A stretch of DNA of 64,000 nt from Okamejei kenojei (lineage: Eukaryota), in contig CM069159.1 in assembly GCA_035221665.1 (NCBI GenBank), positions 19,468,001-19,532,000 on the forward strand, given 5' to 3'. The notes below the pieces were generated by a model, which was not told the origin of the DNA, did no database searches, and was given only the letters and a program-made list of their open reading frames with translations. Of the stretch, positions 2,631-50,448 are shown piece by piece; position 1 is the stretch's first letter; each line of letters opens with the position of its first letter. A program made the position numbers and the translations under genes.

Positions 2631-2731
2631 AATTGCGAAAGGATGCGAGTCGACCTCCTGCCGTGAGCTCGTAGTTGTCCGCTCGCTCAAAAGTCAGGTC
2701 AGGACTTTGCCCGATTGGTGTGCATCCAACA
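2631..2731 (+). other. Candidate 5' (probably non-coding) exon of the plus-strand IgSF gene
   Basis: Strong acceptor (ccttttctctatcctgcag) and donor (CA|GTAAGT); contains a short uORF, ATG-RVDLLP-TGA. No transcript evidence. Confidence 0.4.
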
Positions 2732-2877: not shown

Positions 2878-3730
2878 CATGGTTGCTATGCACAAGAATC
2901 GCTTGGATTATTTCTCCCGTTTCATCTTAGTTGCACAAAGTGACCTTATAACCCACTTTTTCTAAAGCATGTGAGAACTCAAATCCATCTTAGCTGATCA
3001 CAGCAAGAAATGCTGCTCCATTTTCCTAATTGGTTGTATGAAACAGGAATTGGGTGCATACATTTTGCAATCTGCCCAAAGCACAATTTTTAACTTCAAG
3101 ATTTGGGCTAATAATAACTGACGGACATAAAATTCCAACTTTCATTCCTTATACATTAGTTGGTTAGATCAAGACATAAATGAAATATGTTTAAGAAGGA
3201 ACTGCAGATGCTGGAAAATAGAAGGTAGACAAAAACCTGGAGAAACTCAGTGGCTGAGGCAGCATCTATGGAGTGAAGGAAATAGGCAACGTTTCAGGTC
3301 GAAACCCTTCTTCAGATTGAGATGAAATATGGGTATTTTCAAAACGCTGAATATATTTTCTTTTTGTATTTGTTTTTAAACAGGCATTAAACATTTAAAA
3401 GTCACCCTGATATCCGGCAAACAGGGATCGCTGAAGTGTCCCCACTCATTAAAGATCACAGATAAAAATTATATTTTGTACTGGAATAAAGAAGCTAAAA
3501 CAATTTGCTATGAGAATTTCAATGAGAAAGCTGGTGTACAAGGGTGTACTGGATTTCAACTTCTCGTAAAGGAAGAAGAAATTACCTTAACTATTGCAGA
3601 AGTGAAATACTCAGATTCTGGAAACCACACTGGCTACTTGTACACAAAAGATGAACATTTTGAATGCAAAGTAAACTTGCTTGCAAGACAAGGTAGGTGT
3701 TTTAAAAATTGGTGTGGCTTTGAGGTACTT
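2878..3730 (+). repeat. Local ~850-bp segmental duplication (partner ~8910-9758) carrying an IgV exon plus upstream intron
   Basis: Direct by-eye alignment gives roughly 97% identity; both copies include the same repeat insertion in the intron. Confidence 0.95.
3384..3692 (+). pseudogene. Leaderless duplicate IgV exon (open 309-nt phase-1/phase-1 exon)
   Basis: ttttaaacag|GCATT...CAAG|gtaggt. Encodes IKHLKVTLISGKQGSLKCPHS...YWNK...TICY...GCTGFQLL...DSGNHTGYLY...FECKVNLLARQ. It lies upstream of the only signal-peptide exon found. Confidence 0.7.
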
Positions 3731-3899
3731 CCAGTTTTGGTGTCTTCAGCAAACTTGCTCACCAACCCATCTACATTTACGTCCAAGTCATTTATATGTC
3801 TCGCAAACTACAGAGATCCCAGCGGAACTCCACTGATCACAGACGTCCAGCCAGAATATCTACCTTTCACCACAACCCTCTAACTGCTATGAATAAACT

Positions 3900-5798: not shown

Positions 5799-6016
5799 GC
5801 CCATTTCTTCTATTCAGAGATGCTGCCTGTCCTGCTGAGTTAGTCCAGCATTTTGTGCCTATCTACAGTTTAAACCAGCATCTGCAGTTCCTTCCTACAC
5901 ATTGTTCCCACATTGTTGATTGTTGAATTTCAGCCACTGTGTTACAGAATATAGAACGGGAAGGATGCATTTTTTCATTGTTTAACCATTCCCTTTCTTT
6001 GCAGATTTCCACAGAA

Positions 6017-6083
6017 ATGGGTGGATTACCAAGCATCATCCATGTTATCTTATTAACATTCGTACTGGAAGCAAATTCTGAGA
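6017..6083 (+). CDS. Signal-peptide exon MGGLPSIIHVILLTFVLEANSE
   Basis: Acceptor ccctttctttgcag ends at 6004, Kozak-like gaaATGG, hydrophobic core, phase-1 donor GA|GTAAGT. Confidence 0.85.
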
Positions 6084-9000
6084 GTAAGTACTGAATTGAT
6101 GCAACCGATGAAACAAAGTGGACAGATAAATATACAGTTATGAGGCCGTGGATACAAGATACCACAGATGTTGATTTACCAAGGAAAGGCACCCAATGCT
6201 GGATTAACTCAGTGGGTCGGGGAACGGCCATGGAGAAGATGGATAAGTGCCCTTCTGGGTTGAGACCCTTCTTCCGACTCATCGCGTATCCATGTTCTCC
6301 AGGGAACCTGCCATTTGCTGAGCTATTCGAGCATTTTGTGTCTTTCCTCAGTTATGAGGCTGGCTGCTTGCTTACTCAACATATCTTTGCTGTGTCAAAA
6401 TTCTAGTTAAATCCTTATTTATAAAGAATCCATTAAATGAGGAAGCAACACAAACAATATCTAATGTTTCCCTAGCTGCGCAGCAGCTTGGCTTGCCTCT
6501 GGTCAGTTACCATGGTTTGGAATTCCCCTCCTCATATCATCTAAATTAGCGCTTCAATGCACGAGATGCTAGATTTCAGCTCTGAATCACTGAACCTGCA
6601 CCATGACAACAGATTAAATTTGCTCTTTGATGTTAGGAGCAAACCGTACTAAATTTTCCAGCTTTGGAGCAGTTGCAGGATTTCAAATGAGTAGTGAAAT
6701 TGTTTTAAGATGCGTGGAAGGCCACAGTAGGGCAGCTGTAAGCACAAAATCTTACCTGGATAATTTAAAATAAAATACCCGTTGCGATCCAATGCTATTG
6801 TTGCAATGATCACAAGAGGAGTATTCCAATGAGATTGTTTCTCACAGTTTCTATGCCCACAATATCATCTGCGTCAATGCAATTTAATATTTTCTTTTGG
6901 TGAATCTGTCCCTGTATATTTGGGTAGAATTATTTTTTTATATTATAATTATGATAAATAGTACGTTGGATAACAATGCAATTATAGTTGCAAATGGGTT
7001 ATTTCAGTGCAAGATGTTAATGTAACGATATTTGATATTTTAGAAAATTATTATTTGCCATTGCTAAATGAAGGATGTTATTGTGGTATAATTAAAAAAA
7101 ATCTCTCAGGAGATATATCGGAAAACACAACATTTCTATTGTAGGTTTCAAAGGGAGAACTTTGAATTTGTTGGGTTCCTGGAATATGCTCAGTTTACAA
7201 ATTATTTAAACGATGGGAACTTGGTTACACTTACCAACATGCAATTATTTAATTTGCTATTTGTGGGAACAGAAGAACATATGCAAAATAGATTTTAAAA
7301 TAATTGAGTAGAAATTTGAAATGAAAGTCAAAGGAACAGAATTATTGGAACAGCGTTCTTTGCAAATATGTTCCAGTTTGCACATTTTACATGTACAAGA
7401 GAGGGCAGTTTTCTATCCCAATCTGTTGAAGTTAAATTATTTTAAACCTCATTGTTGTGTTTGGCATACGTGAGAGAATGGATTGCTTCCAGTTCTATTT
7501 TCTCGCAGTTCCATCCAAACGATTTTATACCATGTTCAATGCAGAGTGAAGTCCAACAAAATGACGCAGGCTCAGCATTGAAAACTGTCAGAGATTTTTC
7601 CTGGAATAAATGTCGGCACAATTTGGCAATAACTTATTTGCAAGGAACTTTGCTCCAGTAATTCACTTCCATTGGCTCCCATTCAAAATTTTAAATGTGT
7701 TTATATTTCAGTATGTGGTTGACTTGAATCTAGTTCTAATCATTCTTTTAATTATAACTTTTTCACGACAAAACCCAGCTCCTCTGTTGTCTGGCTGTTC
7801 TATCTCTCTCACCCTTTTTCATAGAATCATAGAAAATAGGTGCAGGAGTAGGCCATTCGGCCCTTCGAGCCTGCACTGCTATTCAATATGATCATGGCTG
7901 ATCATCCAACTCGGTATCCTGTACCTGCCTTCTCTCCATACCCCCTGATCCCTTTAGCCACAAGGGCCACATCTAACTCCCTCTTAAATATAGCCAATGA
8001 ACTGGCCTCAACTACCTTCTGTGGCAGAGAATTCCACAGACTCACCACTCTCTGTGTGAAAAAATATCTTCTCATCTCGGTCCTAAAAGACTCCCCCCTT
8101 ATCCTTAAACTGTGACCCCTTGTTCTGGAGTTCCCCAACATCGGGACCAATCCTCCTGCATCTAGCCTGTCCAACCACTTAAGAATTTTGTAAGTCTCTA
8201 TAAGATCCCCCCTCAATCTCCTAAATTCCAGCGAGTACAAGCCGAGTCTATCCAGTCTTTCTTCATATGAAAGTCCTGCCATCCCAGGAATCAGTCTGGT
8301 GAACCTTCTCTGTACTCCCTCTATGGCAAGAATGTCTTTCCTCAGATTAGGAGACCAAAACTGTACGCAATACTCCAGGTGTGGCCTCACCAAGGCCCTG
8401 TACAACTGCAGTGGAACCTCCCTGCTCTTGTACTCAAATCCGTTTGCTATGAATGCAAACATACCATTCGCTTTCTTCACAGCCTGTTGCACCTGCATGC
8501 CTACTTTCAATGACTGGTGTACCATGACACCCAGGTCTCGTTGCATCCTTTTGCATCCTTCCTTGTGCCCTCTCTCACTTCTCACCTTCTATCATTCCTC
8601 CAAGCTCTCTTGTCATTCTCCTCCTCATCCCTCTCTCCCTCTCCCTCCCCGCTTGCTCTCGCTGGCTAGCTTTCTCCCGGCCTACCCAGTTCTTTCATTT
8701 TTTCAAACCTCTAGAAATTGCTGAGCATTTGATTAAAGTGACGGAAGTTCAGTGTGTGACCAGCCACAATTAACATACCTTAATCAATTCAATTACATGA
8801 TTTGACGTCACAGGATTTGACCTCATGTTGTTCTAAATTGTATGATAAATGTAAGCACACACTAAAACATTGCTGTACTGGAGACATAGTTTTGTCCAAG
8901 GTATAAAGCCATGATTGCTATGCACAAGAATTGCTTGGATTATTTCTCCTGTCTCATCTTAGTTGCACAAAGTGACCTTATAACCCACTTTTTCTAAAGC

Positions 9001-12000
9001 ATGTGAGAACTCAAATCCATCTTAGCTGAACACAGCAAGAAATTCTGCTCCATTTTCCTAATTGGTTGTATGAAACAGGAATTGGGTGCATACATTTTGC
9101 AATCTGCCCAAAGCACAATTTTTAACTTCAAGATTTGGGCTAATAATAACTGACGGACATAAAATTCCAACTTTCATTCCTTATACATTAGTTGGTTAGA
9201 TCAAGACATAAATGAAATATGTTTAAGAAGGAACTGCAGATGCTGGAAAATCGAAGGTAGACAAAAACCTGGAGAAATTCAGTGGCTGAGGCAGCATCTA
9301 TGGAGTGAGGAAATAGGCAACGTTTCAGGTCGAAACCCTTCTTCAGATTGAGATGAAATATGGGTGTTTCAAAATGCTGAATATTTCCTTTTTGTATTTG
9401 TTTTTAAACAGGCATTAAACATTTAAAAGCCACCCTGGTATCCGGCAAACGGGGATCGCTGAAGTGTCCCCACTCATTAAAGATCACAGATAAAAATTAT
9501 ATTTCGTACTGGAATAAAGAAGCTAAAACAATTTGCTATGAGAATCTCAATGAGAAACCTGGTGTACAAGGGTGTACTGGATTTCAACTTCTCGTAAAGG
9601 AAGAAGAAATTACCTTAACTATTGCAGAAGTGAAATACTCAGATTCTGGAAACTACACTGGCTACTTGTACACAAAAGATGAACATTTTGAATGCAAAGT
9701 AAACTTGCTTGTAAGACAAGGTAGGTGTTTTAAAAATTGGTGTGGCTTTGAGGTACTTTCAAGTCAAATATTATGACAAAATCAATTCATAGCTTGGGAT
9801 TTATTTATTGTGACAGTAAATCCATTGTATGTGTCATCTATGCATTGGCTGGAGGAAAGCTGGATTCCAGGACTGAAAAGTTTGTGCTGATGTTTCCTCA
9901 GAGTTGCAGACCAACTTGTTGCCAAGCTTCACTTGAGTAACATAGCATAAGCTAGAATGACAGTGATGTTTCTGTTCTCTAAATATGTAACATGGGAGCA
10001 CAGAGGGTACCGTTGCTGCTTTGCAATATCGATCGTGACCTATAGCATGGAAGAGTACAGCACAAGAATAGGCTATTCAACCCACAATGTCTGCCGAACA
10101 TGATGCCAAGGCCATTTCTTATCTACCTACACATGATCTATATCCCTCCATTCACTGCATATCTACATGACTATCCAAAAGTCTATTAAATGCCACTAAC
10201 GAACATCTGCCTCAACCGCCAATCCCAGCAGTGCACTCCAGGTACTCACCACCCTCTGTGTAAAGACAATAAACGTGCCCCACACATCTCCTTTAAACTT
10301 TGCCCCTCTTACCATAAAGATGCGTTCTCTAGTATTTGATTTTTCCATCTTGGGGAAAAGATTTCTAGCTGCATTGCGATGTGCTATGTATAACTTCATA
10401 GCTATGCCCTCTAGTGTTGGGCATTTCCACCTGGTGGGGGTGTGGGGGGAGGTTCTGACTGTCTTCTCGATTTTTGCCTCTCATCATTTTATATACTAAT
10501 GTTAGTTCTCCTCGCAACCTCCGGTGTTCCAGAGAAAACAATCCAAGTCTGTCCAGTCTTAGTCCCCTGTAGCTAATGCTGCCTAATCCAGGCATCGTTC
10601 AGGTAAACCTTCTAAGCCCTCCACATCCTTCTTTTAATGGGGCAACTAAAACTGCAGTCTATACTCCAAATGCACCTAACTAAAGCCATACAAAGCTGCA
10701 TCGTGACTTCCTGGCTGTTGTACTCAAGGGTATAACCTCTGGCACCAACTCTGTGGCATTTCAATCTCTCACTGTATGGCCTTTCCCCAAGTGCTTGAGT
10801 TTTCTGGGCAGCTCAAAGATGTGCTGGAGAGTCAATTGGCCACTTTAAATTTCTGCTGGTCTAGGGGAGAAGTAGTAGTGGCAGTGAGGAGGGAAAACGC
10901 ATCAGAGAGAGAACAGACTTCAGGGAAACAAGTAGAGGAAATGGAACCAACAGGATTTCTGGCTGCTATTGACTTGATGTGCTGAAAGTCCCCTGTATTG
11001 TAAGGAAGTTTAGTTCAATTTCAGCTTACCCATTCTTACACAGCTGTTTAGAGATACAGCATGGCAACAGGCCCTTTAGCCCACCGAGTCTATGCCGACG
11101 ATCGATCACCCGATCACGCTAGTTCATAAGTTCATCTGTTGTAGGAGCAGAATTAGGCCATTCGGCCCATCAAGCATACTCTGCCATTCAATCATGGATG
11201 ATCTATCTTTCCCTCTCAACCCCATTTTCCTGCCTCCATAGCCCCTGACATCCGTACTAATCAACAATCTGTCAATTTCCACCTTAGAAATCTCCATTGT
11301 TGGCATGCACAGCCTTCTGAGGCAATAAATTCCATCGATTCACCACACACTGACTAAAGAAATTCCTCCTCATCTCCTTTCAAAGGTTATGTAAACTCTC
11401 CCAATAGTGGAAACATCCTCTCTACATCCACTCTATCCAGGCTTTTCACTATTTGGTAAGTTTCAATGAGGTTCCCAATCATCTAAACTCCAGCTTGTAC
11501 AGGCCCACTGCCATCAAACACTGATCGCATGTTGACCCAATCATTCCTGGGATCATTCTCGAAATCCACTTCTGGACCCTTTCCAGCGCCAGCACATCTT
11601 TCCACAGATATGGTGCCCATATATCTATGTTCTATGTTATCCCACTAGTTCTATGTTATCCCACTTTCTCATCCACTCTCTACACACAAGGGAGACACCC
11701 AACCGGACGAAACCCACACGGTCACGGGGAGAGTGTGTAAGCTCCACACTGACAATACCCAAGTCAGGATTGAACCCAGGTCTCTGGTGCTATGAAGCGG
11801 CAGCTCTATCAGCTTCGCCCAGTTTAAAAATAAATCTGCAGCAGCCAAAGTAGTGAGTGATTACAGAGTTAAATATAATACATTGAACTTTGTTTACAGA
11901 AGGATGTTTCTCGTGAAACTCAAGTAGAAATCAGCTGATATTCATGTGAATGTGACTGTACAGTCAGTGAGACCACAGGGGGTGGGGGAGGGGAGGTGAT

Positions 12001-15000
12001 ATTTATGGTTTACTTCCTTGATCTTTGTTCCAGAAAGTCATCTTAAGTAAGTATGCAGAGACCATCACCTGCTTTATATCTATAATTAAACATTTTTCTG
12101 AGGTAGCATTTCTATCTCACCGCCATTTAAATGGGCACCGGTCCAAAGTGGGCACTGTTCTTTGTTGTTCAGTGTATTATCCTCAAGTTATTTAAAACAC
12201 CGACATCTCTGTGCAATTGTGTACTTTGTAGTTGTGTTTAAGATTGATTTGCCTAAAGTGCAAATTTTCTGCCTGGATTAGAGTGTGTGAGAGAGGGTGG
12301 ACAGACTTGAATTGATTTCCCTGGAGTGTTGGAGGTTGAGGGGGCACCTGATGGAAGTGTATACATTTATGAAAAGCCTTGCTTGGGTCGACGGCAGAAC
12401 ATTGTTTCAGTGGAAATTTCAAAGCCTGGAGAGCATAGTGTTGTGAGTGGGGCAAGAAATAAAAGGGAAGTGTGGGGCAAGTGTTTTTACACAGAAGTTG
12501 GTGGGTGTTGCTAATGCGCTGCCATTGGTGGTGGTGGCGGCAGGTATAGTTGTGGTGTTTAAGAGGCTGTTAGCAAGGGATATGGATATGCGGGGTATGA
12601 ATCACATGGACGTAGAGGAGATTCATTTAACTTGGCATGGATACATAAAAACATTGAAACATAGAAAACAGGTGCTGGAGTAGGCCATTCGGCCCTTCGA
12701 GCTATCACTGCCATTCAATATGATCGAAGCTGATCATCCAAACTCTGTTCCCTGTTCCTGACTTTTCCCCTTATCTCTTGACTCCTTGAGTCCTAAGGGA
12801 TAAATCTAACTCTCTCTTGCAAAGTGGACATTGTGGGCCAAAGGGTAAGGTCCTGTGCTGAACTGTTCTATTTAAAAAAATTCTCATTTAACACTCTGCA
12901 CTAGATCAGATGAAATGTATGGTGAAGCCTTATCACTAACTATTAAAATCAAGAGCTGATATTTCTACTCCAAGTGACAATTTCAAATGCTGTGGCCTAT
13001 TGTCAAGATTTGGCCTGTATCACACTCATGAAGATTCACCTACACTTTCAAATTGGAGGTGAAATCTTCATAATATCTGAAAGTTTATATTCCTCCCCAC
13101 CCACCAAATCCCATAACCATACATACAGGATGGAACTGCAGATGCTGGTTTATACCAAAGATAGACACAAAATGTCGGAGTGACTGAGCGGGTCAAGCAG
13201 CATGTTTGGGGAAAAGGAATAGGTGACATTTCGGGTTGAGACCCTTCTTCATACCCCTTGCATGGTGGTAATTGAGAGAGATGGTAATAAACAGGATATA
13301 GCTCTAACCTCCAGAAAAAATGCAGGAAGAACTTGTTAGGATCATGATAAATTTGCATGAACATTTGCATTACTAATTTGCCACTTAGTCTTGATTTGAC
13401 CCAAAACAAATCTTTTGGCCTACTTGCTTCCTGCTATTCATATTTTTTCAAACAAAAAGCGATTGAGAAATAATTATTCCAATAACTCACAACTTATAAT
13501 CATAGTTGGCATCCATTATATTAATTCTTAATTAAACCACCCTAAGTTGCAAGAGATCAGTCCAATGAGCAATTGATTTTAGTTTGACTAGCTTTTGTAG
13601 ATTTTGTAAAGTTAATTGAGGAAGTCTTTGGAAACTGAAATCTCTCTCTGTCTTCCTGTTTCTTTTAAATTTAAATTCCTATAATACAGTTTCAGTTTGT
13701 GAAAATGCACTCTTGAAAACCGTTCATTTAGTCAGCCATAAAAAGCATGATTTATATTTCACATTTTATTTTAACAGCTGAAAATCTATGTGGTAAAAGA
13801 AGGGGGCTCATTGTGTAAACTTCCCAGTGCTGAGAGTAGTCATCACTGCTGACTGGCTCAAGTAAAGCACACGAGTCCCACTACCACAGTCAGCAAAATT
13901 CAAATAATTGTTTGAGATTGCATTTCTGATGTTAAAAATTACTGGAGGCAGAAGAGATGCCCTCTGATACCCTCTCGCCCTGCACATCTTTGAACTTTGT
14001 CCCACTCACTTTAAAACAATGCCCAATGATACCCTCTCGCCCTGCACATCTTTGAACTTTGTCCCACTCACTTTAAAACAACCTTCAATGTTTCCACTCT
14101 GGGGAAAACGGTCCTGACTGCCTACCCTTTCCGTGCCTCTCGTAATATTATATACTTGTATCAGGTCTCCTGCCAACTTCTGATGCGCTAGAACTAGGGA
14201 GTAAAATGTTGTGATTCTTCTGCAGATTTAGTTTAGATGCATGTTAATGATTTGGAGTAAAGCACAAAAACCTCTGCTGCCCAGAAAGATTTCTCCACTC
14301 CTACCCAGAGTGAAGAGAGGGAGGAGGAATGGTTATAGCTGGACTGCTTTGAGTTGGAGCTTGTAGACACTTGATGGGCCCAATAGTCACCTCCTGTGTT
14401 GTGACCATCGTCATAGCCTCATCAAAGCTTTGGCCCAAACATGGAAGAAAGAGTTGAATTTTCAAAATGAGACTTGAGTGACTGTCCTTGACATCAGGAC
14501 AGCGTTTTTGCTGAGTGTGACATTGGTTGAAACAATACAATTAATATCCATGAGTTTAAAAGGGAAGATACTTCCAGGGTTGGAGTTGTACCTCTCACTC
14601 AACCCAACCCCCCGATCTTACTCAATTGGATCCTCAAAAAGATGCCTGGGCCCAACCATCATCAGCATCTTCATCAATGACCTTCCTTCCATCAGTCGGT
14701 TGGGAAGTGGGAATATTTGCTCGTGATTGCACAGTGTTCAAGTTCAATTACAATTGTTGCCCCTCAGAAAATGAAGCCATCAACGACCATCAGCGCTAAA
14801 CAATACCAAAAAGTTGTGTATTATGTAGCAAATAACAGTGGTGCCACTAAAGTGAACATGCCCAACGTGGAAGTGTCTAACCATCAACAGATTCAGCAAA
14901 ATGACCATCACTGATCCTGCATATTGTAGACAGTTGGAACCTTTTTCCCAGGATAGAAAAGTTCAACACTAGAGGGCACAGCTATAAGGTGAGAGGGGAA

Positions 15001-18000
15001 GGTTTAATGGAGATGTTGGGGGCAACACAGGAGGTGTTTGGGGCCTGGAACTCATGCCAGGGGTGGTGATGGAGGCAGATACAATAGTGGCATTTAATAG
15101 GCTTTTAGATAGGCGCATGGAAGCGCTGGGAATAGAGGGACATCGATCATGTGCAGGCAGATGTGATCAGTGTAACTATGGCATCATTTTCAGCGCAGAT
15201 ATTATGGGCCGAAGGGCCTGTTCCTGTTCTGTGTTCTATATTCTACGGCCTATTGTCAAGCAATGGACCAATTGCATAAATTCCATGGCTACAAGACTAG
15301 GTCAGAGGCTGGCTATTGGATTGTGAGTGACTCTCCTACCAGCTGCTGGGCTCCCAACTCCCTCCTGGGAAGTCTGTCAACACTGCTGGTGCACAGGATG
15401 TGGGGTGGGGTTTGGAGGAAGAGGTGGGCAGAAAATGTGGAGGGATGGGGGTGAAACAGGGATTGTAAAATTGGGGTGTAACGGGTGGAAGTTGGGTGGA
15501 AGAATGGGTTCAGCTATTTTTGTTCAGCTAACTAGACGACACATGTTCCCTTAAGCCCAAATTGTGTGTCAACAAAAATCCCTAAGTAGGGACATCCTTG
15601 CTTTAAGATACATGAATCATTTTAATTTAAAATACAACACATGGGAGAAATTAATTTGAAACTACATATTGAATTTCTGGGCTATATTGTCTACTTCCTC
15701 AGCCAGTAAATCACAAAGCAGACAACTTTAACAATGTTGATGTGAACAATTACAATGAGCTCCACTCATGAAAGCATTCAATGGTAAATATTACTACATG
15801 CCTGTTCAATGGATGTAAGAGAAGATTAAACGTGTAGGAAGGAACTCAGATGCTGGTTTACACTGAATATAGACACAAAATGCTGGAGCTTCGTTGTCAC
15901 CTTCCTATAGCTTACAATGATCTATTCTCCATTTTCCTTGATATTTATCCCCTTTGATCTCTCATTTTCATTCCTTCCCCTTCCATATCACTCATTTCCC
16001 TCTCCCCTGACTCTCAATCTGAAGTAGAGTCTCGACCCGAAACGTCGGCCATTCCTTCGATCCGGAGATGCTGCTTCTGCCACATTTATTCCTGATGCCC
16101 CTTTTACTTACATTCTCACCAATCATAACCAGTGTGCAGATAAGGCCAATTAGTGTCTGACCTTGGAGTTGTTATTGAGCTCTTGTGGCTCGACCTTTTC
16201 GTGCGGCTGCTGGAGAGTTGCCAGCGGTGACTGTATGGAAAACCAACGTGGGCGTGAAGGCGCCACAGCTGCCTCCTCAGCCTCCGAGTCGTACAAGCCT
16301 GGCTTTGTCTGGCAGGTTGCTTCTACAGCCTGATCTTGTTTGGTACTGCAGTGTGGGAGGCCATTGACAGGAAGTGTTGGGGCCTTGTGACTTTGCCTGT
16401 TCGGTGGGTGAGGTAGTCAGTTGGTTCTCGACGTAGGCTGGCGTTAACTGGTCGATGGATACGGTGTCAGTTTTTCCATTCCGATAGATCACAAAACTTT
16501 TGGGTAGGCTTTGGATGACTTGGTAAGGGCCATTGTGTGCTTGCATAAGAGGTCGGTGGACGGCATTGTGTCGGACCAAAACGTGCACAGCGTTGGAGGT
16601 CAGCAGGCAGGTAGACCATTGCAGGTGTTCGCCGTGTCAGTGTTGGCCTGAGTAGCTGCATAGTTCATTGTAATCGATCGACATACCTGCTTGGATCATA
16701 GGATCTGTCTGCGGGGATTGGTTTGACAAATTTGCAAGGCAGCTTCAGAGTTGTGCGGTAAACCATTTCAGCCGATGAACATCCTAGGTCTGCTTTCACC
16801 GCCATACGAATGCCAAGCAGAACCAGAGGCAACTGTTCACTCCAGGCCGTTCGCTTGTTGATGATACGCAATCATTCGGATCTGGTTCGTACCCAAGAGG
16901 TCGGTTAGTGTTTGAAACAGAACGGACTCGAATTGCGGTCCACGGTCTGCTGCGATCATACTTGGGATCCCAAAGACCGAAATCCATCGGTCAACAAAAG
17001 CGCGGGCTATTGTTTCCGCAGAAATGTTGATAACTGGGATAGCATCTTGCCATCTTGTGAACACAAGTGAGCAGATATGTGTAGTTTCTTGACGGTGGGA
17101 GTGGGCCGACCAAGTCCAGGTGCACATGCTCAAAACGGATGTTCGATACACCATAAGGGGTCCTAGTGTGCCTGGAGATCATGGATTGTTGACACGGTAG
17201 ACATGTCTTCACCCATAATCCAATGTCATGCTTGATGAAAGGCCAGATGAAACTTTCAGAGAAACCTTCAGCTGCACATCTTGCCCGGCCGGATGTGATA
17301 AGTTGTGCAGCGCGCTGAAAACTTCTCGACACATCGTCCTAGGCACAAACGGCCTTGGTTTGCCAGTGGAAGTGTCACATATGATGGTTTCTCTCGTGTC
17401 ACCGATAGGTACATCTTCCAGTTTTAGGGCTGTATGTGTCCGGTGGTAATGGATAAGATCGGGATTAGTATGCTGCACGCGTGCCATGGCATAAAAATCA
17501 ATGAGTGTGGCCGCATTCAGAGCATCGACCTCCAGTCTTGATGGGGCATCGGCAACCGATTTGCTTTTACTTGAATGTGCCTGATGTCACTGTGGAGAAT
17601 TGCAGAATGATGTCCAAGTGGCGGATTTCCCGTGGTGAATCGTTCCCCACACTTGCACGAGTAGTGTATGTGAGCCGGTTGGTGATCCGTATAAATAGTG
17701 AATTGATGGCCTTCCAACAGGTGGTGGAAATGCTTGATGGCGAGGTTCATAGCCAAATGTTCTCGCCCGAACGTACTGTACTTCATCTGAGTCTGAGTGG
17801 GTGATAATTTTGCTGAAAAGAATGCCAGAGGCTCCCACCTGCCATTGACTCGCTGCTCCACGATGGCACCCATGGCGTTGACGGAGGCATCAGTGGTGAG
17901 TGAAAATAAGGCACTGGGCTTCTGATGGACCAGCAGTTGCGTTGGCGAGCGTCCTCTTAACAGGCGTTGAAGGCTTGCACAGCATCCTCGGGTAAACCAA

Positions 18001-21000
18001 CGGTTTCTTTGAAGACTATTTGTCTGAAACCTTTGAGACAAAGTTCTCAAGTTGGTAGAAAGCGGCAGTAGAAATTCATCATCCCCAAAAATCGGCATAA
18101 TTGATTTAACAAATTTGGTACTGGGCAGTTTCGGATTTCCTGCACCTTCGATTCACCGGGAAAGATTCCATTCTCAGTCACGTAATGCCCGAGGAAAGTG
18201 AGTACGCGAGCGCCAAACATGCATTTGTTCGTGTTAATGGCAATAACATATTCGTCAAGACGCCGGGACAATAATCCGAGGTGTTTCTTGTGTTCATCTT
18301 CGCTGGAGGTCGCTATCAACATGTCATTGATGTACGCGTAGAATAAACCGAGGCCGGAGAGTATATGGTCCATGAAACGCTGGAACGATTGTGCTGCGTT
18401 CCGCAACCCAAACGGCATCCGTAGAAATGCTGAGCTACTCTAGCATTTTGTGTCCATTTTAAGACTGATTTCTCCACCACCTACATGTATTTCCAGCTAT
18501 CTGCACAATATTTTTTGAATCAATCAAAAAATATTATATAATCATTCTGCTATGAAAGGATATTTTGAAAAGCAAAAACACTGCTGATTGCACTGGGTTG
18601 TAACAGATTTCATATCTTCAAAAAGCTCCAGGCGATTAGCACAATTTTTGCTCAGCTAGGGCTGTGATGGACTTTTCTGCCAACATAAATAATGCATTTC
18701 ATACTTCAGTGTTCCTTTTATGAAATCTGAACAGGTGTTTTGGAAATTCAAGTGATGTATTTCAAGTGACCTTGTCTGATTGATGTTTTCCATTTTATTA
18801 CAGTTGGCAGAATGTTACCTGGTTCTCATGGCATTTGTACAACAGCAGGTATGAATGTAAGGGCTTAGCTAATCTTTCAAATGGCGAAAAAAAAGCATTG
18901 TTGAATGTGGGAAATTACAAATTGCTTTGATGTAATTCAAGCTCCAGAACTCTTGCCGCCTCCTCATGGTATTGTGGAATCGTATAATGATACAGCACCA
19001 ATGTCGGCCCTTCCAGCTTACCCCGTCCACACCAACCATGTTACACTGCTAACCCCATTTGCCTGCATTAGGCTCATATTTCTTCCTATGTTTCCCTCCC
19101 AAGTATCTGTCCAAATACCTTTTCAACATGGTAATTGCATCCGTCTCCATTACCTGTCCTGGCAGCTCTTCCATAGATTCAGCACTATTGTACCAAACTT
19201 TCCCCTCAGATCTCCTTTAAAGTTCTCACTGTAAACCTGTGCCCTCTAGTTGTGGGTTCCACTGGGTTAAATTCTCCAATTATTTATCACATCAGTGCCC
19301 CTGATAATTGTATAATTGTTATTGAGGTCATCTCTCAACCTCATGTGATATTGTAATGATAAACCCTATCTAATCCCTCCATGTAACAACACAACTCAGT
19401 TCCAAGCAATGCTAATGAATCCCTTCAGTGTTTGCTTTATAGCTATTACATTTTTCCTGCCCTATGCTGACCAGAACTGTACATACTTATTGCAATCTAA
19501 CCAATATTTTGACTTTCCACCATCTGGAACCCACGTCAAGATTTTGATGGAACATCATTCATTTGCCAGAACACATTCCACCTGTCCAATAATATTCAGG
19601 ACAAATTAGCCTGCTTTATTGGCATGCACCAAAATGGAAACATAAGTGATTCACAAATGCACTACAATCCTCACCAAGGTTGTGTCTACACTTGACCTCA
19701 TCAAATAAAAAAAATGAGGGCAACAGACCATGGTGGACACTACCACCCTGTGTTTCCATAGAACAGTGCAATACAGGAACAGGCCCTTCAGCCTGCAATG
19801 CCTGTGGCGAACATAATGCCAAGTCCAACCCTTATCTGCCTGCACATAATCTCTATCCCTCCATATCCATGAGTTTATTCAAAAGTCTCTTTAATGCCAC
19901 TATCAACCTGCATCTTCCCTGGAAGTGTGTTCCAGGCACTCACTTCCCTCTGTGTAAAAAAACAACCTGCCCAGCACATCTCCTTTAAACTTTGCCCCTC
20001 ACCTTAGAGCTATGCCTTCTAGTGTTTGATATTTTAATACTATGTCAAGCACCAACTTGACTTGGAAATATTTCACAGTGCCTTTATCATCAAAGATTGA
20101 ATTCCTGGAAATTCCTCATCATTTCTTGAAAGTAAGCATGCAGGTACAGCAGGCAGTGAAGAAAGCTAATGGCATATTGGCCCACATAACAAGAGGAGTT
20201 GAGTATACAAGAAAAGAGATTCGTCTGCAGTTGTACATGGCCCTGGTGAGACCACACCTGAAGTATTGTGTGCAGTTTTGGCCTCCTAATTTGAGGAAGG
20301 ACATATGCTAAATGCAGGAAACGTGTTGTGGGAGTCCAGAACCAGGGGCCACAGTTGAGGAATAAGGGATAGGCCATTTAGAACTGAGTTGAGGAAAAAC
20401 CTTTTCACCCAGAGAGTTTTGTATTTGTGGAATTCATTGCCTCAGAAGGCAGTGGAGGCTGATTCACTAAATGCATTCAAAAGAGACTTAGATAGGGCTC
20501 TTGGGGCTAGCTGAATCAAGGGATATGGGGAGAAGGCAGGAACGCGGTACGAATTTGAGAATGATCAGCCATGACCACATTGAATGTCGGTGCTGGCTCG
20601 AAGGGCCGAAGGGCCTACTCCTGCACCTATTGTCTATGTAACTATGTAATTCCATTCACGAGAAGGATTGAAATAATTCCAGTATGCAGGAAAGAACTGC
20701 AGATGCTGATTTAGATCGAAGATAGACACAAAATGCTGGAGTAACTCAGTTGGGCAGGCAGCATCTCTGGATCCTGAGAGACAAATGGGGTGGACATTGA
20801 ATAACAGTGATGTCCACTTCACATAAAAAAATAATATTGCAACAGTAGGCTGAATCTCCAGGCATCTCATACAGCAGGAATTGTTAATTGCCCAACTCAT
20901 CCTCTGAAAATGCCCTTGATTGAATTTGTCCTCATTAAGGCGATGATTAAATTGTAAAGAAATCGACCATCAGATTAATTTGTATTATTGACGTGCTTTA

Positions 21001-21115
21001 GATGTTTTGAAAAATAATTTGTGTAATTCATGCAAAACTTTTATTCGTTTCAGGTCTATTCTTGCTGCTACTCCCACTTGCTGTGGCCATTTGGAATTTT
21101 CCAATCCTCTTGTAG
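6017..21115 (+). CDS. Putative GPI-anchored single-IgV protein, 165 aa (exons 6017-6083, 9412-9720, 13778-13792, 18804-18848, 21054-21115)
   Basis: All junctions are GT-AG and phase 1. Total 498 nt is open to a TAG. Architecture: signal peptide, V domain, short stalk, hydrophobic C-terminus, no cytoplasmic tail. Confidence 0.7.
7820..8545 (-). mobile_element. CR1 LINE 3' portion
   Basis: ORF 7902-8585: QRDLGVMVH...AVKKANGM...LYRALVRPHLEYCVQFWSP...RGDLIETYKI. Confidence 0.92.
9412..9720 (+). CDS. IgV-like domain exon
   Basis: SIKHLKATLVSGKRGSLKCPHS...ISYWNK...TICY...QGCTGFQLLVKEEEITLTIAEVKYSDSGNYTGYLYTKDEHFECKVNLLVRQ. B-strand Cys, C-strand Trp and the LTI..V..SDSG.Y motif are present. 309 nt, phase 1/1. 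Confidence 0.9.
10040..10730 (-). mobile_element. Older CR1 LINE 3' fragment
   Basis: LDRLGLFSLEHRRLRGEL and FTQRVVSTWSAL remnants. Similar decayed pieces at ~11130-11620, ~12280-12870, ~13900-14190, ~14930-15245 and ~18970-20040. Confidence 0.75.
13778..13792 (+). CDS. Candidate 15-nt micro-exon (AENLC)
   Basis: cattttattttaacag|CTGAAAATCTATGTG|gtaaaa; symmetric phase 1, so it can be included or skipped without changing frame. Confidence 0.5.
16170..18425 (-). mobile_element. Degenerate Ty3/Gypsy pol fragment (RT-RNaseH-integrase), no LTR recognised
   Basis: MPFGLRNAAQSFQRFMD...YINDMLI (RT), LTTDAS..GAIVEQ..WEPLAFFS (RNase H), HVHLDLVGPLP / DRGPQFES / YHQQANGLE (integrase); multiple frameshifts. 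Confidence 0.92.
18804..18848 (+). CDS. Stalk / GPI omega-region exon (VGRMLPGSHGICTTA)
   Basis: ttttccattttattacag|...CAGCAG|gtatga; 45 nt, phase 1/1, open frame. Confidence 0.65.
20128..20640 (+). mobile_element. CR1 LINE 3' fragment with internal deletion
   Basis: KVSMQVQQAVKKANGILA...LVRPHLKYCVQFWPP followed by the CR1 3' end. Confidence 0.85.
21054..21115 (+). CDS. Terminal hydrophobic exon GLFLLLLPLAVAIWNFPILL* (GPI-signal-like)
   Basis: cttttattcgtttcag| acceptor in phase 1; 20 uncharged, mostly hydrophobic residues ending at TAG. Confidence 0.75.
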
Positions 21116-23235
21116 AAACGCAAATGTCGCGAGAGACCGAGTTCTGAAAATCTGCAGTTCTTGAAATATAACTTACCATTCAAGTAATGTGCAATATAAA
21201 GTGGATATTTGCAAAACATGCTCCAGCAACATTTCAATTAAAGTAATCTGAGGGACAATCCTGAAAAGTTGCAATACAACGTACCACTTTCGGCCTGTGT
21301 GCATGACATTTTGGGCCGTATATTGAACTGTTACATTCCTTTGCCTATTGTGATATGAGGGCATTTCAGCAGGGAATGAATTATGATTTGTAATGCTTCT
21401 GTGCATTTTCCTAAGTTAAGCATCCATGACATCTTAAAGTTACAGGCCATATTCTGCGAACAGTGTTTTGACATTTTATTGTGCGCTAATGAGATTGATT
21501 TATTTTTACATCAAATAATTTAATTGTCTTTTCAAATATTTTGATTTTGTGAGGCTCCAGAAGGTAATATATAAATGTAGGACTGGATATAAAAATACAA
21601 ATTTCAAAAACAATGGTTAGTGACAATAGTTAGTGGTATTTGTCATTTAAAAAGTCCTTCCAAGTCTCTCCAGACTGAATGTGTTTATTGGTTCAGTGAA
21701 TGCCAATACAGCAAGATTTAGTTTGTGGTGAACTACTTCCCATTGAGGCAAACTTTGTCTTTTACGTTTTGTTTTAAAAGATGAAACTGTAATTAGTAAA
21801 ATTAATTTCATTATTTTTAACAAAGCAGGTAAAACTTAAAATAAAAAATGTTGACTTTGAACTCACAAGTCAGAGGTATAGTGGAAGTTTGGAGAAGGGT
21901 AAGTAGGGACTTCTCTCTGCTTCCATAATCTGCTGTGATTACGGCCTACACGTTTATCCAATCACAACAAGGACATTTGAAGCCCTATATACAGATCTGT
22001 TTAACATTTATTCAAACATTACAGAACCAAAATAGTTCAGGTCATTTCTAATTTGGAATTGACATTATTTCCTGTCCATCATACCAAATATATGAATTAA
22101 AATATTTTTGTGAACTAAACTCGGTAATTTTTGCTCTTGGATTGAGTGAATCTGTGCTAACTGTGAGAGCAAATAACTATGGTACTCTGGAAATGGGGTT
22201 GGACAAGCAAATTATGGTGATGAAACTAATCTTCTGTAAAGGTTGCTAGTTTGCTCACATCCAACAGTTGTACTGATCAAGTGAACCAAAATAATTCGGG
22301 TCATTTCTAATTTGGATCACCATCAAATCATGTGATAAAATTGAAGTGCCGATCTGACTCTTATTTAAAATTAAAAGTTCATACAAGTGAATCTGCGGTT
22401 CAACATCATATTAACAATCAACATTTTCCAAGCCCACCATTGAATCGGAGTACCTAGTCCAATGATCGCATTCCCAGTGGCAGCAAATGGTCGTTCTAAG
22501 CTGGGGACGGCCTATTTATACACTACGCCAACAGGAAATAAGTATGAAGAAATAGTCTTATCTCATCTTGCTATGGATAATTCATAATAGTTCTGACGTT
22601 TTAAACTCAGATTTTAATTGTAACAGTAACAATAACATTTGTGACATCATGTTTCGTATATGTCTGTATCTGTGTCTTGTGAATTGTGCATTTGTCACAG
22701 GTGAATTTAAGAATAGTTCTAATGTTGTGTTGCATGTATTGTTCCCTGTGACAGATGCTTGGGAATATGTACATTTTGATTTTTGGGATCTAATCACTCC
22801 TGTTGCATTCTCAACGTAATCAATATATCTTCAGAAGCTGAACAGACTCTTGCATTAATATTGAAAATCTGTGAAATTACATTTTTTTGTGATAAAGTTG
22901 CAGGTCAAAGTAAATTCAAAAAAAGATTATATTTTGTCTGGTCCTCTGCACATCAATCACTGTAGTGTGATCCACTACCAATAGCCTTGAAACAAAATAC
23001 CCTGAGGACCTATTCATCATAGTTTGGGCTAGACCAGGCCGACCTCTAGAGTGTGCTACCAAGATACTATCAGCACATATCCTGCCCTACCAGAGGCTCA
23101 AACGCCCTTGAACACAGTGACACAGCTATCGAAGACATCTATCACTCCATCTGACTTACACACTCTGCTCCTCTTTCCTGCATACAAGAAGAAACTGAAT
23201 CAATAGCATTTGGTATTGAAAGTCGTACAGTATTT

Positions 23236-23968
23236 CAATCTCAGAAGAAGAATGGCATCATATGTGTGTAACACTACAGACATCCACCAATTGACAAAAT
23301 TGTAGAGAATTTAATTGGAAAAATTTGATTTGTTTCTTTATTATGCCTAACATAAAAAGCAAGCAAATTCTAAGGCAGCAAACATGCTGGAGGCAATGTG
23401 GTCAAACAGATGCAAACCATGCAAATATCTTCTGGAGTTGCCCAAAAATAGAAACATTTTGGGACTGAGTGAATTCAGAATTAACGGAGGTATTAGGATA
23501 TATAGTCTGCAAGAAGTGTTCCATTTTATACCTGGGTAATATAACTACAGTGGTGCTGAAGGAAGACCATTACTTGGTTAAAATCCTACTCACAGCTGGC
23601 AGAAAGGCCATTACAAGAAACTGTCTCGCAGCGGACACACCCAGACTAAGACAATGGTTAGACATAGTACAGGAAATATTTGTCATGGAGAAAATGACAT
23701 ATTCTCTAAGAGTGAAAGAAGACGAGTTTAACAGAAAATGGGAAAAATGGATCAGGAATAGAAGTAAAGACATCAACACTGTAAAATTTTATAGACAATA
23801 ATGTAAGTTATTGGAAAATGTTTTAATATGAAAATAGTTCTATATACTGCATCATTAATTGTAAACTGAACCCCCCGCTACACTGTTGTACGTTTCATTG
23901 TAATGTTGTATGTTTCGTTGTTATATTTGTGTATACATAAAGGCAATAAAAACTAAAGTGGAAAAAAA
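23236..23968 (+). mobile_element. 5'-truncated L1/Tx1-like LINE with target-site duplication
   Basis: ORF2 C-terminal-like ILLTAGRKAITRNC...QWLDIVQEIFVMEKMTY...KWEKW, then AATAAA and an A-rich tail. 18-bp TSD GAAAGTCG(T/G)ACAGTATTT at 23218-23235 and 23969-23986. Confidence 0.8.
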
Positions 23969-49948: not shown

Positions 49949-50448
49949 NNNNNNNNNNNNNNNNNNNNNNNNNNNNNNNNNNNNNNNNNNNNNNNNNNNN
50001 NNNNNNNNNNNNNNNNNNNNNNNNNNNNNNNNNNNNNNNNNNNNNNNNNNNNNNNNNNNNNNNNNNNNNNNNNNNNNNNNNNNNNNNNNNNNNNNNNNNN
50101 NNNNNNNNNNNNNNNNNNNNNNNNNNNNNNNNNNNNNNNNNNNNNNNNNNNNNNNNNNNNNNNNNNNNNNNNNNNNNNNNNNNNNNNNNNNNNNNNNNNN
50201 NNNNNNNNNNNNNNNNNNNNNNNNNNNNNNNNNNNNNNNNNNNNNNNNNNNNNNNNNNNNNNNNNNNNNNNNNNNNNNNNNNNNNNNNNNNNNNNNNNNN
50301 NNNNNNNNNNNNNNNNNNNNNNNNNNNNNNNNNNNNNNNNNNNNNNNNNNNNNNNNNNNNNNNNNNNNNNNNNNNNNNNNNNNNNNNNNNNNNNNNNNNN
50401 NNNNNNNNNNNNNNNNNNNNNNNNNNNNNNNNNNNNNNNNNNNNNNNN
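49949..50448. other. Assembly gap (500 N)
   Basis: Run of exactly 500 N flanked by low-complexity, error-rich sequence. Confidence 1.

What the first reader, a model, noticed from the sequence alone, without database searches (positions are those of the whole stretch)
6017..21115. Thy-1-sized, putatively GPI-anchored single-IgV protein
Seen in sequence: five phase-1 exons join into 165 aa, with a signal peptide, V domain, AENLC-VGRMLPGSHGICTTA and a final GLFLLLLPLAVAIWNFPILL* with no cytoplasmic residues. Established: this layout (small residues such as S-H-G or C-V-G, a spacer, then a hydrophobic terminus) is the GPI-attachment signal, and single-V GPI proteins are few (Thy-1/CD90, CD160). 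Inference: I see no convincing sequence resemblance to either, so this may be a novel lineage-specific surface protein.
Basis: partly seen in the sequence, partly recalled or inferred. Interest (0 to 1): 0.75.

Follow-up and report, generated by a model that had tools for sequence, protein, structure and literature searches.

The report
Shark-skate GPI-type IgV gene, not Thy-1
This is a real, spliced skate gene, shared with sharks and still unnamed, for a small single-immunoglobulin-domain protein that is likely tethered to the cell surface by a GPI lipid anchor; it has four coding exons rather than the five proposed, and it is separate from the skate's own Thy-1 gene.

Summary
All five segments have AG/GT ends in phase 1. 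Transcript-type contigs from two studies, however, join the V exon straight to 18804-18848 and then to the last exon, skipping the 15-nt 'AENLC' segment; 9 of 9 skate-type relatives lack it too. The protein is 160 aa, and the Thy-1-like 'C-V-G' site disappears. Orthologues exist in another skate and two sharks (33-79% identical, all unnamed); nothing specific was found outside elasmobranchs. All full-length forms keep leader, one IgV domain, short stalk and a hydrophobic end without cytoplasmic tail, so a GPI anchor is likely (about 0.8; no predictor or assay run). It is not THY1: the true skate THY1 lies 4.8 Mb away beside USP2. The domain folds as a generic compact IgV with no family-specific match. 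Two oddities: the core cysteine partner switches between strands F and G across species, and the V domain varies more than leader and tail. An undescribed member of a known kind; moderate interest.

The parts
6005..6083 (+). Leader exon (ATG at 6017, purine at -3 and G at +4; 22 codons of signal peptide; phase-1 donor)
   Evidence: the leader is 21/23 identical in P0002. Junction to the V exon not seen directly in contigs
9412..9720 (+). IgV exon, residues 24-125; Cys41 (strand B), Trp56, Cys64 (C'), Cys77 (before D), Gly106 in place of the strand-F Cys, Cys117 (G); sequon N103
   Evidence: Pfam V-set E 5e-5, under the cut-off; AlphaFold model pLDDT 89; contig starting at 9412
13778..13792 (+).
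   Evidence: skipped in contigs of 2 studies; absent from 9 of 9 skate-type relatives; weakest splice sites
18804..18848 (+). Stalk exon (15 codons) with the likely omega site S133-H-G and the spacer
   Evidence: covered exactly by spliced contigs; S-H-G aligns with S-S-G in bamboo shark
21054..21115 (+). Last coding exon: 19-residue uncharged hydrophobic tail and stop; the 3' UTR follows
21116..23250 (+).
   Evidence: contigs run from 21051 past the end of the stretch laid
3384..3692 (+). Orphan duplicate of the V exon upstream of the leader exon (856-bp duplication 2878-3733, 97% identical)
2631..2731 (+). Candidate non-coding 5' exon (AG...GTAAG); not tested with reads
   Evidence: sequence only

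Best explanation
A single-copy, spliced elasmobranch gene encodes a 160-residue precursor with one compact IgV domain that is likely GPI-anchored and likely acts as a surface ligand or adhesion/recognition molecule for another Ig-type protein. Shown: four coding exons, splicing of the last three, conservation in sharks, no cytoplasmic tail, separateness from THY1. Inferred: the leader takes it into the ER; GPI transamidase would cut after S133 and remove the 8-residue spacer and the 19-residue hydrophobic tail (with the fifth cysteine, C137), leaving a roughly 110-residue glycoprotein with two disulfides, C41-C117 (strands B-G, replacing the usual B-F bond) and C64-C77. Having no intracellular part, it would act in trans on a partner or signal through a co-receptor in lipid rafts, as Thy-1, CD48 and CD160 do (my knowledge). 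The variable C'-D and F-G loops would form the binding face. Partner and tissue are not known.
For: Splicing. Orthologues with the same layout: Rhinoraja longicauda 76%, unnamed Logan cluster 79%, Chiloscyllium punctatum 36%, Mustelus asterias X1 33% over the whole length; the bamboo-shark protein's only matches in this genome are this exon and its orphan copy. GPI layout: no charged residue after R128; small-residue site followed by an 8-residue spacer and 19 hydrophobic residues, within the 5-10 and 15-20 ranges stated in PMC9997660 (passages); S-H-G aligns with S-S-G in Chiloscyllium; C137 is absent from both sharks and would be removed with the propeptide. Fold: model pLDDT 89, strands placing Cys41 on B and Cys117 on G; Z 10.3-11.6 to many IgV domains; the Atlas's own model of the bamboo-shark protein matches V/I-set clusters at TM 0.57-0.68. 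Cysteine switch: Chiloscyllium has CysF and no CysG, skates and Mustelus the reverse; a CysB-CysG bond is documented in titin Ig domains (PMC5766482, passages). By language-model features the nearest clusters are Thy-1 (0.95-0.96), which I read as shared architecture.
Against: No GPI or signal-peptide predictor and no experiment. In Mustelus X1 the aligned site is L-N-G, and the nearest rule-fitting site (N137-T-G) leaves a short spacer. Mustelus also has a 138-aa model without the hydrophobic tail. The runs are only guessed to be RNA and two were flagged 'probably DNA'; the contigs nevertheless join exons at the splice sites. Disulfide pairs are inferred from strand positions; no coordinates were available. 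The good model came from an alignment padded with 20 other skate V-set exons, THY1's among them; with 4 sequences alone folding failed (pLDDT 44). The ligand role rests on analogy only.
Confidence: 0.6

Rival explanations
1. It is the highly diverged elasmobranch counterpart of a known single- or two-domain GPI-linked immune IgV gene (CD160-, CD48/CD58- or BTLA-related) from the paralogous 1q/3q/11q/21q Ig regions, and works as that kind of lymphocyte ligand.
For: Immune IgV genes diverge fast enough to lose detectable sequence similarity. 2B4 ranks at or near the top in both structure searches, and CD48 is listed in one. CD160's exon plan (non-coding exons, leader, Ig, two short 3' exons; recalled) resembles this one. 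The gene sits beside a birth-and-death cluster of V-C-I receptor genes on the chromosome that carries CBL-, OAF-, USP2- and neurotrimin-like genes.
Against: No non-elasmobranch protein scored above multi-Ig background among 1.84 billion representatives or in the 5.8-billion search with the family profile (4 hits of 5044 candidates). The top structural scores are ties within 1 Z unit across unrelated families. CD48/CD58 have two domains and lack the B-strand Cys (recalled).
Confidence: 0.2
2. The hydrophobic end is an uncleaved membrane anchor with no cytoplasmic tail (or the protein is partly secreted), so it is a tail-less type I protein, not GPI-linked.
For: The tail is long and hydrophobic enough to span a membrane (19-residue Kyte-Doolittle windows up to 2.4); the Mustelus omega site is imperfect and a tail-less isoform is annotated.
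Against: No basic stop-transfer residues follow the segment in any of the 5 full-length forms examined; it carries Pro and Asn within; a small-residue site lies at the right distance in skates and bamboo shark.
Confidence: 0.15
3. It is THY1 or a recent THY1 duplicate.
For: Same size and architecture; Thy-1 clusters are the top feature matches; same chromosome as THY1.
Against: A separate gene at G000:C29:24.312-24.316 Mb, about 130 kb upstream of USP2, matches solved Thy-1 at E 2.3e-8 and has three coding exons ending in K-C-G plus a GPI-type tail. The finding's V domain has no Thy-1 hit at E up to 10 and shares only 8 of 25 residues around the generic D-x-G-x-Y motif with skate THY1. Exon plan and cysteine pattern differ. 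Very old common ancestry is not excluded.
Confidence: 0.05

Closest known systems
Thy-1/CD90
   Same: About 160-aa precursor, leader + one IgV + C-terminal GPI-type signal; nearest clusters by language-model features; same chromosome.
   Different: No sequence match; skate THY1 is another gene 4.8 Mb away; four coding exons against three; no A-strand or omega-site cysteine; extra C'-D cysteine pair; B-G instead of B-F core pair in skates.
CD160
   Same: Single IgV, GPI-linked, extra intradomain cysteine pair, similar exon plan (all recalled).
   Different: Not among the listed sequence or structure matches; the extra cysteines sit on C' and before D rather than on C and C' (recalled); HVEM binding untested.
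CD2/SLAM family (CD48, CD58, 2B4)
   Same: Compact V domain without the canonical B-F bond; 2B4 Z 11.6 (rmsd 1.9, 90 aligned), CD48 Z 11.0; CD48 is GPI-linked (recalled).
   Different: One domain rather than V+C2; keeps the B-strand cysteine; structural scores tie with B7-H6, TREM2, CD47 and CD80.
Titin I-band Ig domains with CysB/CysF/CysG
   Same: Use of a strand-G cysteine as partner of the strand-B cysteine (PMC5766482, passages); the cysteine lines up in the profile alignment to titin I65-I70.
   Different: Titin is intracellular, I-set and multi-domain; the likeness is convergent and concerns the core disulfide only.
Uncharacterised models LOC144608712 (Rhinoraja longicauda), LOC144479844 (Mustelus asterias), chiPu_0001670 (Chiloscyllium punctatum)
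   Same: Orthologues: full-length alignment, same layout.
   Different: 33-76% identity; none has a name or function; none of five identifiers occurs in the paper library.

Membership tests
IgSF V-type domain | B-strand Cys, C-strand Trp, D-x-G-x-Y motif, V-type sandwich | tested here: met
   Pfam V-set score 23.9 is under the cut-off of 26; no C'' strand in the model
IgSF V-type domain | Canonical B-F disulfide | tested here: not met
   Gly106 at the F-strand position in the window; Cys is present there only in Chiloscyllium
GPI-anchored proteins | N-terminal signal peptide | tested here: met
   hydropathy of residues 1-21, conserved in orthologues; SignalP not available
GPI-anchored proteins | Small omega/omega+2 residues, 5-10-residue spacer, 15-20 hydrophobic residues, no cytoplasmic tail | tested here: met
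   S133-H-G, 8, 19, none (spacer and tail ranges from PMC9997660; omega rule recalled); met in skates and Chiloscyllium, imperfect in Mustelus
GPI-anchored proteins | PI-PLC release / dependence on GPI transamidase | not testable with these tools
   needs expression
THY1 | Position next to USP2 (recalled for human) | tested here: not met
   USP2-like exons at C29:24.44-24.45 Mb with a Thy-1 gene beside them; this gene is at 19.47-19.49 Mb
THY1 | Sequence similarity to Thy-1 | tested here: not met
   no hit to 9pms at E up to 10; the control exon hits at 2.3e-8
THY1 | Three coding exons, A-strand Cys and omega-site Cys | tested here: not met
   skate THY1 shows them; this gene does not once AENLC is removed
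CD160 | Sequence or structure match to CD160 | tested here: inconclusive
   not in the rows shown, which are cut at 50-60
CD160 | Binding to HVEM / MHC class I | not testable with these tools
   needs binding assays
CD2/SLAM | V + C2 two-domain ectodomain | tested here: not met
   contigs join the V exon directly to the stalk exon; orthologues are 156-159 aa
CD2/SLAM | Closest fold among V domains | tested here: inconclusive
   2B4 ranks first but ties within 1 Z unit with many families

The most novel reading that the evidence does not exclude
An undescribed shark-and-skate family of GPI-linked IgV proteins under diversifying selection: a polymorphic ligand or decoy for the neighbouring cluster of antigen-receptor-like V-C-I genes (a linked receptor-ligand pair, as CD48 is for 2B4) or for a pathogen, with the orphan V exon acting as a gene-conversion donor of new binding faces, and with a core disulfide that has been rewired between strands F and G during evolution.
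Probability: 0.15. Interest if true: 0.7.

Novelty: new member of a known kind. Interest (0 to 1): 0.38.

Why it matters
Single-V GPI-linked proteins are few, and cartilaginous fish are the oldest lineage with adaptive immunity. A further family kept in both sharks and skates adds to the ancestral set of surface Ig molecules and gives a concrete target for expression and partner searches. The F/G cysteine switch among orthologues is a natural test of how an extracellular Ig core disulfide can be rewired. Without a partner, tissue or phenotype it is a catalogue addition rather than a surprise.

Tried and rejected
AENLC exon and C-V-G omega site: rejected. THY1 identity: rejected. The first fold from 4 sequences failed (pLDDT 44) and was not searched. 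Structure searches gave only family-wide ties: PDB Foldseek, VIA-align, viral library (many viral Ig proteins, none standing out); neither Thy-1 nor CD160 is in the rows shown, which does not exclude them. Weak Pfam hits to Adeno_E3_CR1, Izumo-Ig, V-set_CD47, Ig_CD22 and DIX (E 7e-4 to 0.09, 1-4 of 7 members) were set aside. The joint table was swamped by repeats. A search for longer relatives of the neighbouring C-type exon found none (0 of 34 candidates). The family profile could not be searched against the own genome; two single-protein searches found only the gene and its orphan exon, so distant paralogues are not excluded. Exon candidates of the upstream gene at 19.32-19.37 Mb could not be named. 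Paper searches: (listings only) found nothing on this gene; PMC12227049 holds none of CRTAM, Thy-1, GPI, nectin or PRARP in its main text (term search); no supplements were read, and genome-paper tables could list these genes. Earlier findings of this scan: none returned. No complex prediction was run, as adjacency was the only ground for a partner.

Full report
Observation. The window is G000:C29:19,468,001-19,532,000 of a 2.76-Gb genome; the closest named relative of the protein is from the skate Rhinoraja longicauda, so I treat the organism as a skate (inference).

Transcript evidence. Eight runs held part of the V exon; none is on record as RNA. Four laid on 5900-22000 each gave a 301-nt contig starting exactly at 9412 (depth 32-81) and a 2271-2289-nt contig lying on 21051-22000 with 81 further letters upstream, while the listed pieces in unique intron stretches had depth of about 2-5. 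Laid on 18700-18960, 3 of 4 runs, from two studies, gave one contig covering 18802-18850; its loose letters are the last bases of the V exon in front and the first bases of the last exon behind. So the V exon is spliced directly to the stalk exon and AENLC is skipped. The tool flagged two runs as probably DNA, but joins at splice sites mean spliced molecules; a processed copy is unlikely because the own genome shows only two V-exon matches, both here. All nine skate-type relatives lack the five residues. The segment has the weakest splice sites of the five under my rough weights, and five other pseudo-exons in that intron score as well. The supported product is 160 aa. No contig led to a transmembrane or cytoplasmic exon, though contigs lose rare forms.

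Family. The word-based search gave 2 hits of 16 candidates. A profile against 1.84 billion representatives gave 26 hits: three full-length single-domain proteins (E 2.5e-89, 6.5e-25, 1.2e-16) and 23 longer multi-Ig proteins whose best single domains score 26 bits or less. The two new ones are from Chiloscyllium punctatum and Mustelus asterias, both unnamed. A profile including them found nothing further (4 of 5044 candidates). Whole-length identity to the window's protein is 79, 76, 36 and 33%. The bamboo-shark protein hits only this locus in the genome. The family therefore spans sharks and skates and was not detected elsewhere; fast divergence could hide bony-vertebrate orthologues.

GPI signal. 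The last charged residue is R128. S133-H-G is followed by 8 spacer residues and 19 hydrophobic ones, inside the ranges of 5-10 and 15-20 given in PMC9997660 (passages read); the small-residue rule for omega is from my knowledge. Chiloscyllium has S-S-G at the aligned place; Mustelus X1 has L-N-G and fits less well; Mustelus X2 lacks the tail. Cleavage at S133 would remove the odd fifth cysteine, C137, which sharks lack, and leave four. I put GPI anchoring at about 0.8; no predictor or assay was available.

Domain. Pfam V-set scores 23.9 bits, under its cut-off. Folding with four sequences failed. With 8 family sequences plus 20 other skate V exons it gave pLDDT 89 and a V-type sandwich without a C'' strand; this padding favours an Ig answer, but the Atlas's own model of the shark protein also matches V/I-set clusters (TM 0.57-0.68). 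The 50 best solved structures lie between Z 10.3 and 11.6, led by 2B4, B7-H6, TREM2, a TCR chain, CD47 and CD80: no family stands out. C41 (strand B), C64 (C') and C77 are invariant in all seven aligned sequences. The usual F-strand cysteine is present only in Chiloscyllium, which lacks the G-strand cysteine that skates and Mustelus have. This either-or pattern implies a B-F bond in one lineage and a B-G bond in the others (inference); B-G bonds are documented in titin Ig domains (PMC5766482, passages read).

Not Thy-1. Language-model features rank Thy-1 clusters first for both a skate and a shark member, so I looked for the real THY1. USP2-like exons lie at C29:24.44-24.45 Mb and OAF at 23.71-23.74 Mb. 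About 130 kb upstream of USP2 on the same strand is a V exon that matches solved Thy-1 at E 2.3e-8 and belongs to a three-exon, 165-aa gene ending in K-C-G and a hydrophobic tail. The finding's domain has no Thy-1 hit at E up to 10. Its own neighbours are a neurotrimin/OPCML-like gene at 19.14-19.18 Mb, an unnamed multi-exon gene at 19.32-19.37 Mb, a tandem cluster of V-C-I Ig genes at 19.51-19.70 Mb with several broken copies, a CBS-like gene at 19.82 Mb and an exon I recognise from memory as BSX-like at 19.93 Mb.

Variation. The V domain is less conserved than leader plus tail: 76/102 against 51/58 for P0002 (Fisher p 0.066), p 0.011 for P0007, and p 0.12-0.49 for the other three comparisons, uncorrected. 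Within the eight-member Logan cluster most differences fall in the V domain, including indels in the C'-D loop. An orphan copy of the V exon at 3384-3692 differs at 8 codons, all non-synonymous (chance about 0.13); its flanks differ about as much (97% over 856 bp), so drift would suffice. The contigs of study P1 differ from the main exon at 7 places; of the 5 shown, all change the amino acid and 4 match the orphan copy, yet the same transcript ends with the main-copy codon 123. Allelic variation with gene conversion would explain this; I could not establish that those runs are the window's species. These are hints of diversifying selection, not proof.

Mechanism and verdict. Most likely a GPI-linked, single-IgV surface ligand or recognition molecule that acts through a partner, since it has no signalling tail (0.6 overall); a diverged counterpart of CD160- or CD48-type genes (0.2), an uncleaved tail anchor (0.15) and a THY1 copy (0.05) are the rivals. 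No paper in the library names the orthologue identifiers, and topic searches found nothing on the gene (listings only, no supplements read). It is an undescribed member of a known kind with two features worth following, the disulfide switch and the variable V domain. Interest 0.38.

Noticed in passing
window 2878-3733 (V exon copy 3384-3692) against 8910-9761: Orphan duplicate of the V exon upstream of the leader exon, splice sites intact, 8 of 8 coding differences non-synonymous; no second leader, stalk or last exon in 864 kb. Transcript contigs of one study share at least 4 of its variants, suggesting polymorphism or gene conversion.
   Followed up: partly
window 29459-49697 against window 50450 to L023 (G000:C29:19.50-19.54 Mb), and L023-L042: 20-kb tandem duplication (89%) carrying minus-strand V-C-I Ig genes. 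In the window both I-type exons and one C-type exon are frameshifted and one V exon is decayed; an apparently intact plus-strand copy has exons at C29:19,688,735, 19,697,362 and 19,704,004. Its V exon has a joined J-like end and best matches antibody light-chain V domains.
   Followed up: partly
L053:2434-2467, 3546-3887, from 6171 (G000:C29:24.312-24.316 Mb): The skate's true THY1: three coding exons, 165 aa, about 130 kb upstream of USP2.
   Followed up: yes
L022:7860-8305 (about 2 kb upstream of the window): GC-rich island with repeated GCGCATGTGC/GCGCAGGCGCA motifs (NRF1-like, recalled) ending in a GTGAGT donor: possible promoter and first exon of this gene, which would point to broad expression.
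   Followed up: no
L008-L013 (G000:C29:19.325-19.374 Mb, + strand): Multi-exon gene that looks otoancorin/mesothelin-like to me from memory; Pfam and PDB searches of single exons did not name it.
   Followed up: partly
L074:7344-9083 (G000:C29:19.82 Mb, - strand): Cystathionine beta-synthase-like exons between the Ig cluster and a BSX-like exon, on a chromosome otherwise carrying human 11q23-25-type genes.
   Followed up: partly
window 16280-18439 (- strand); 49949-50448: Decayed LTR-retrotransposon-type pol fragments within the intron between the V and stalk exons (by eye); a 500-base N gap lies at the junction of the large duplication.
   Followed up: no
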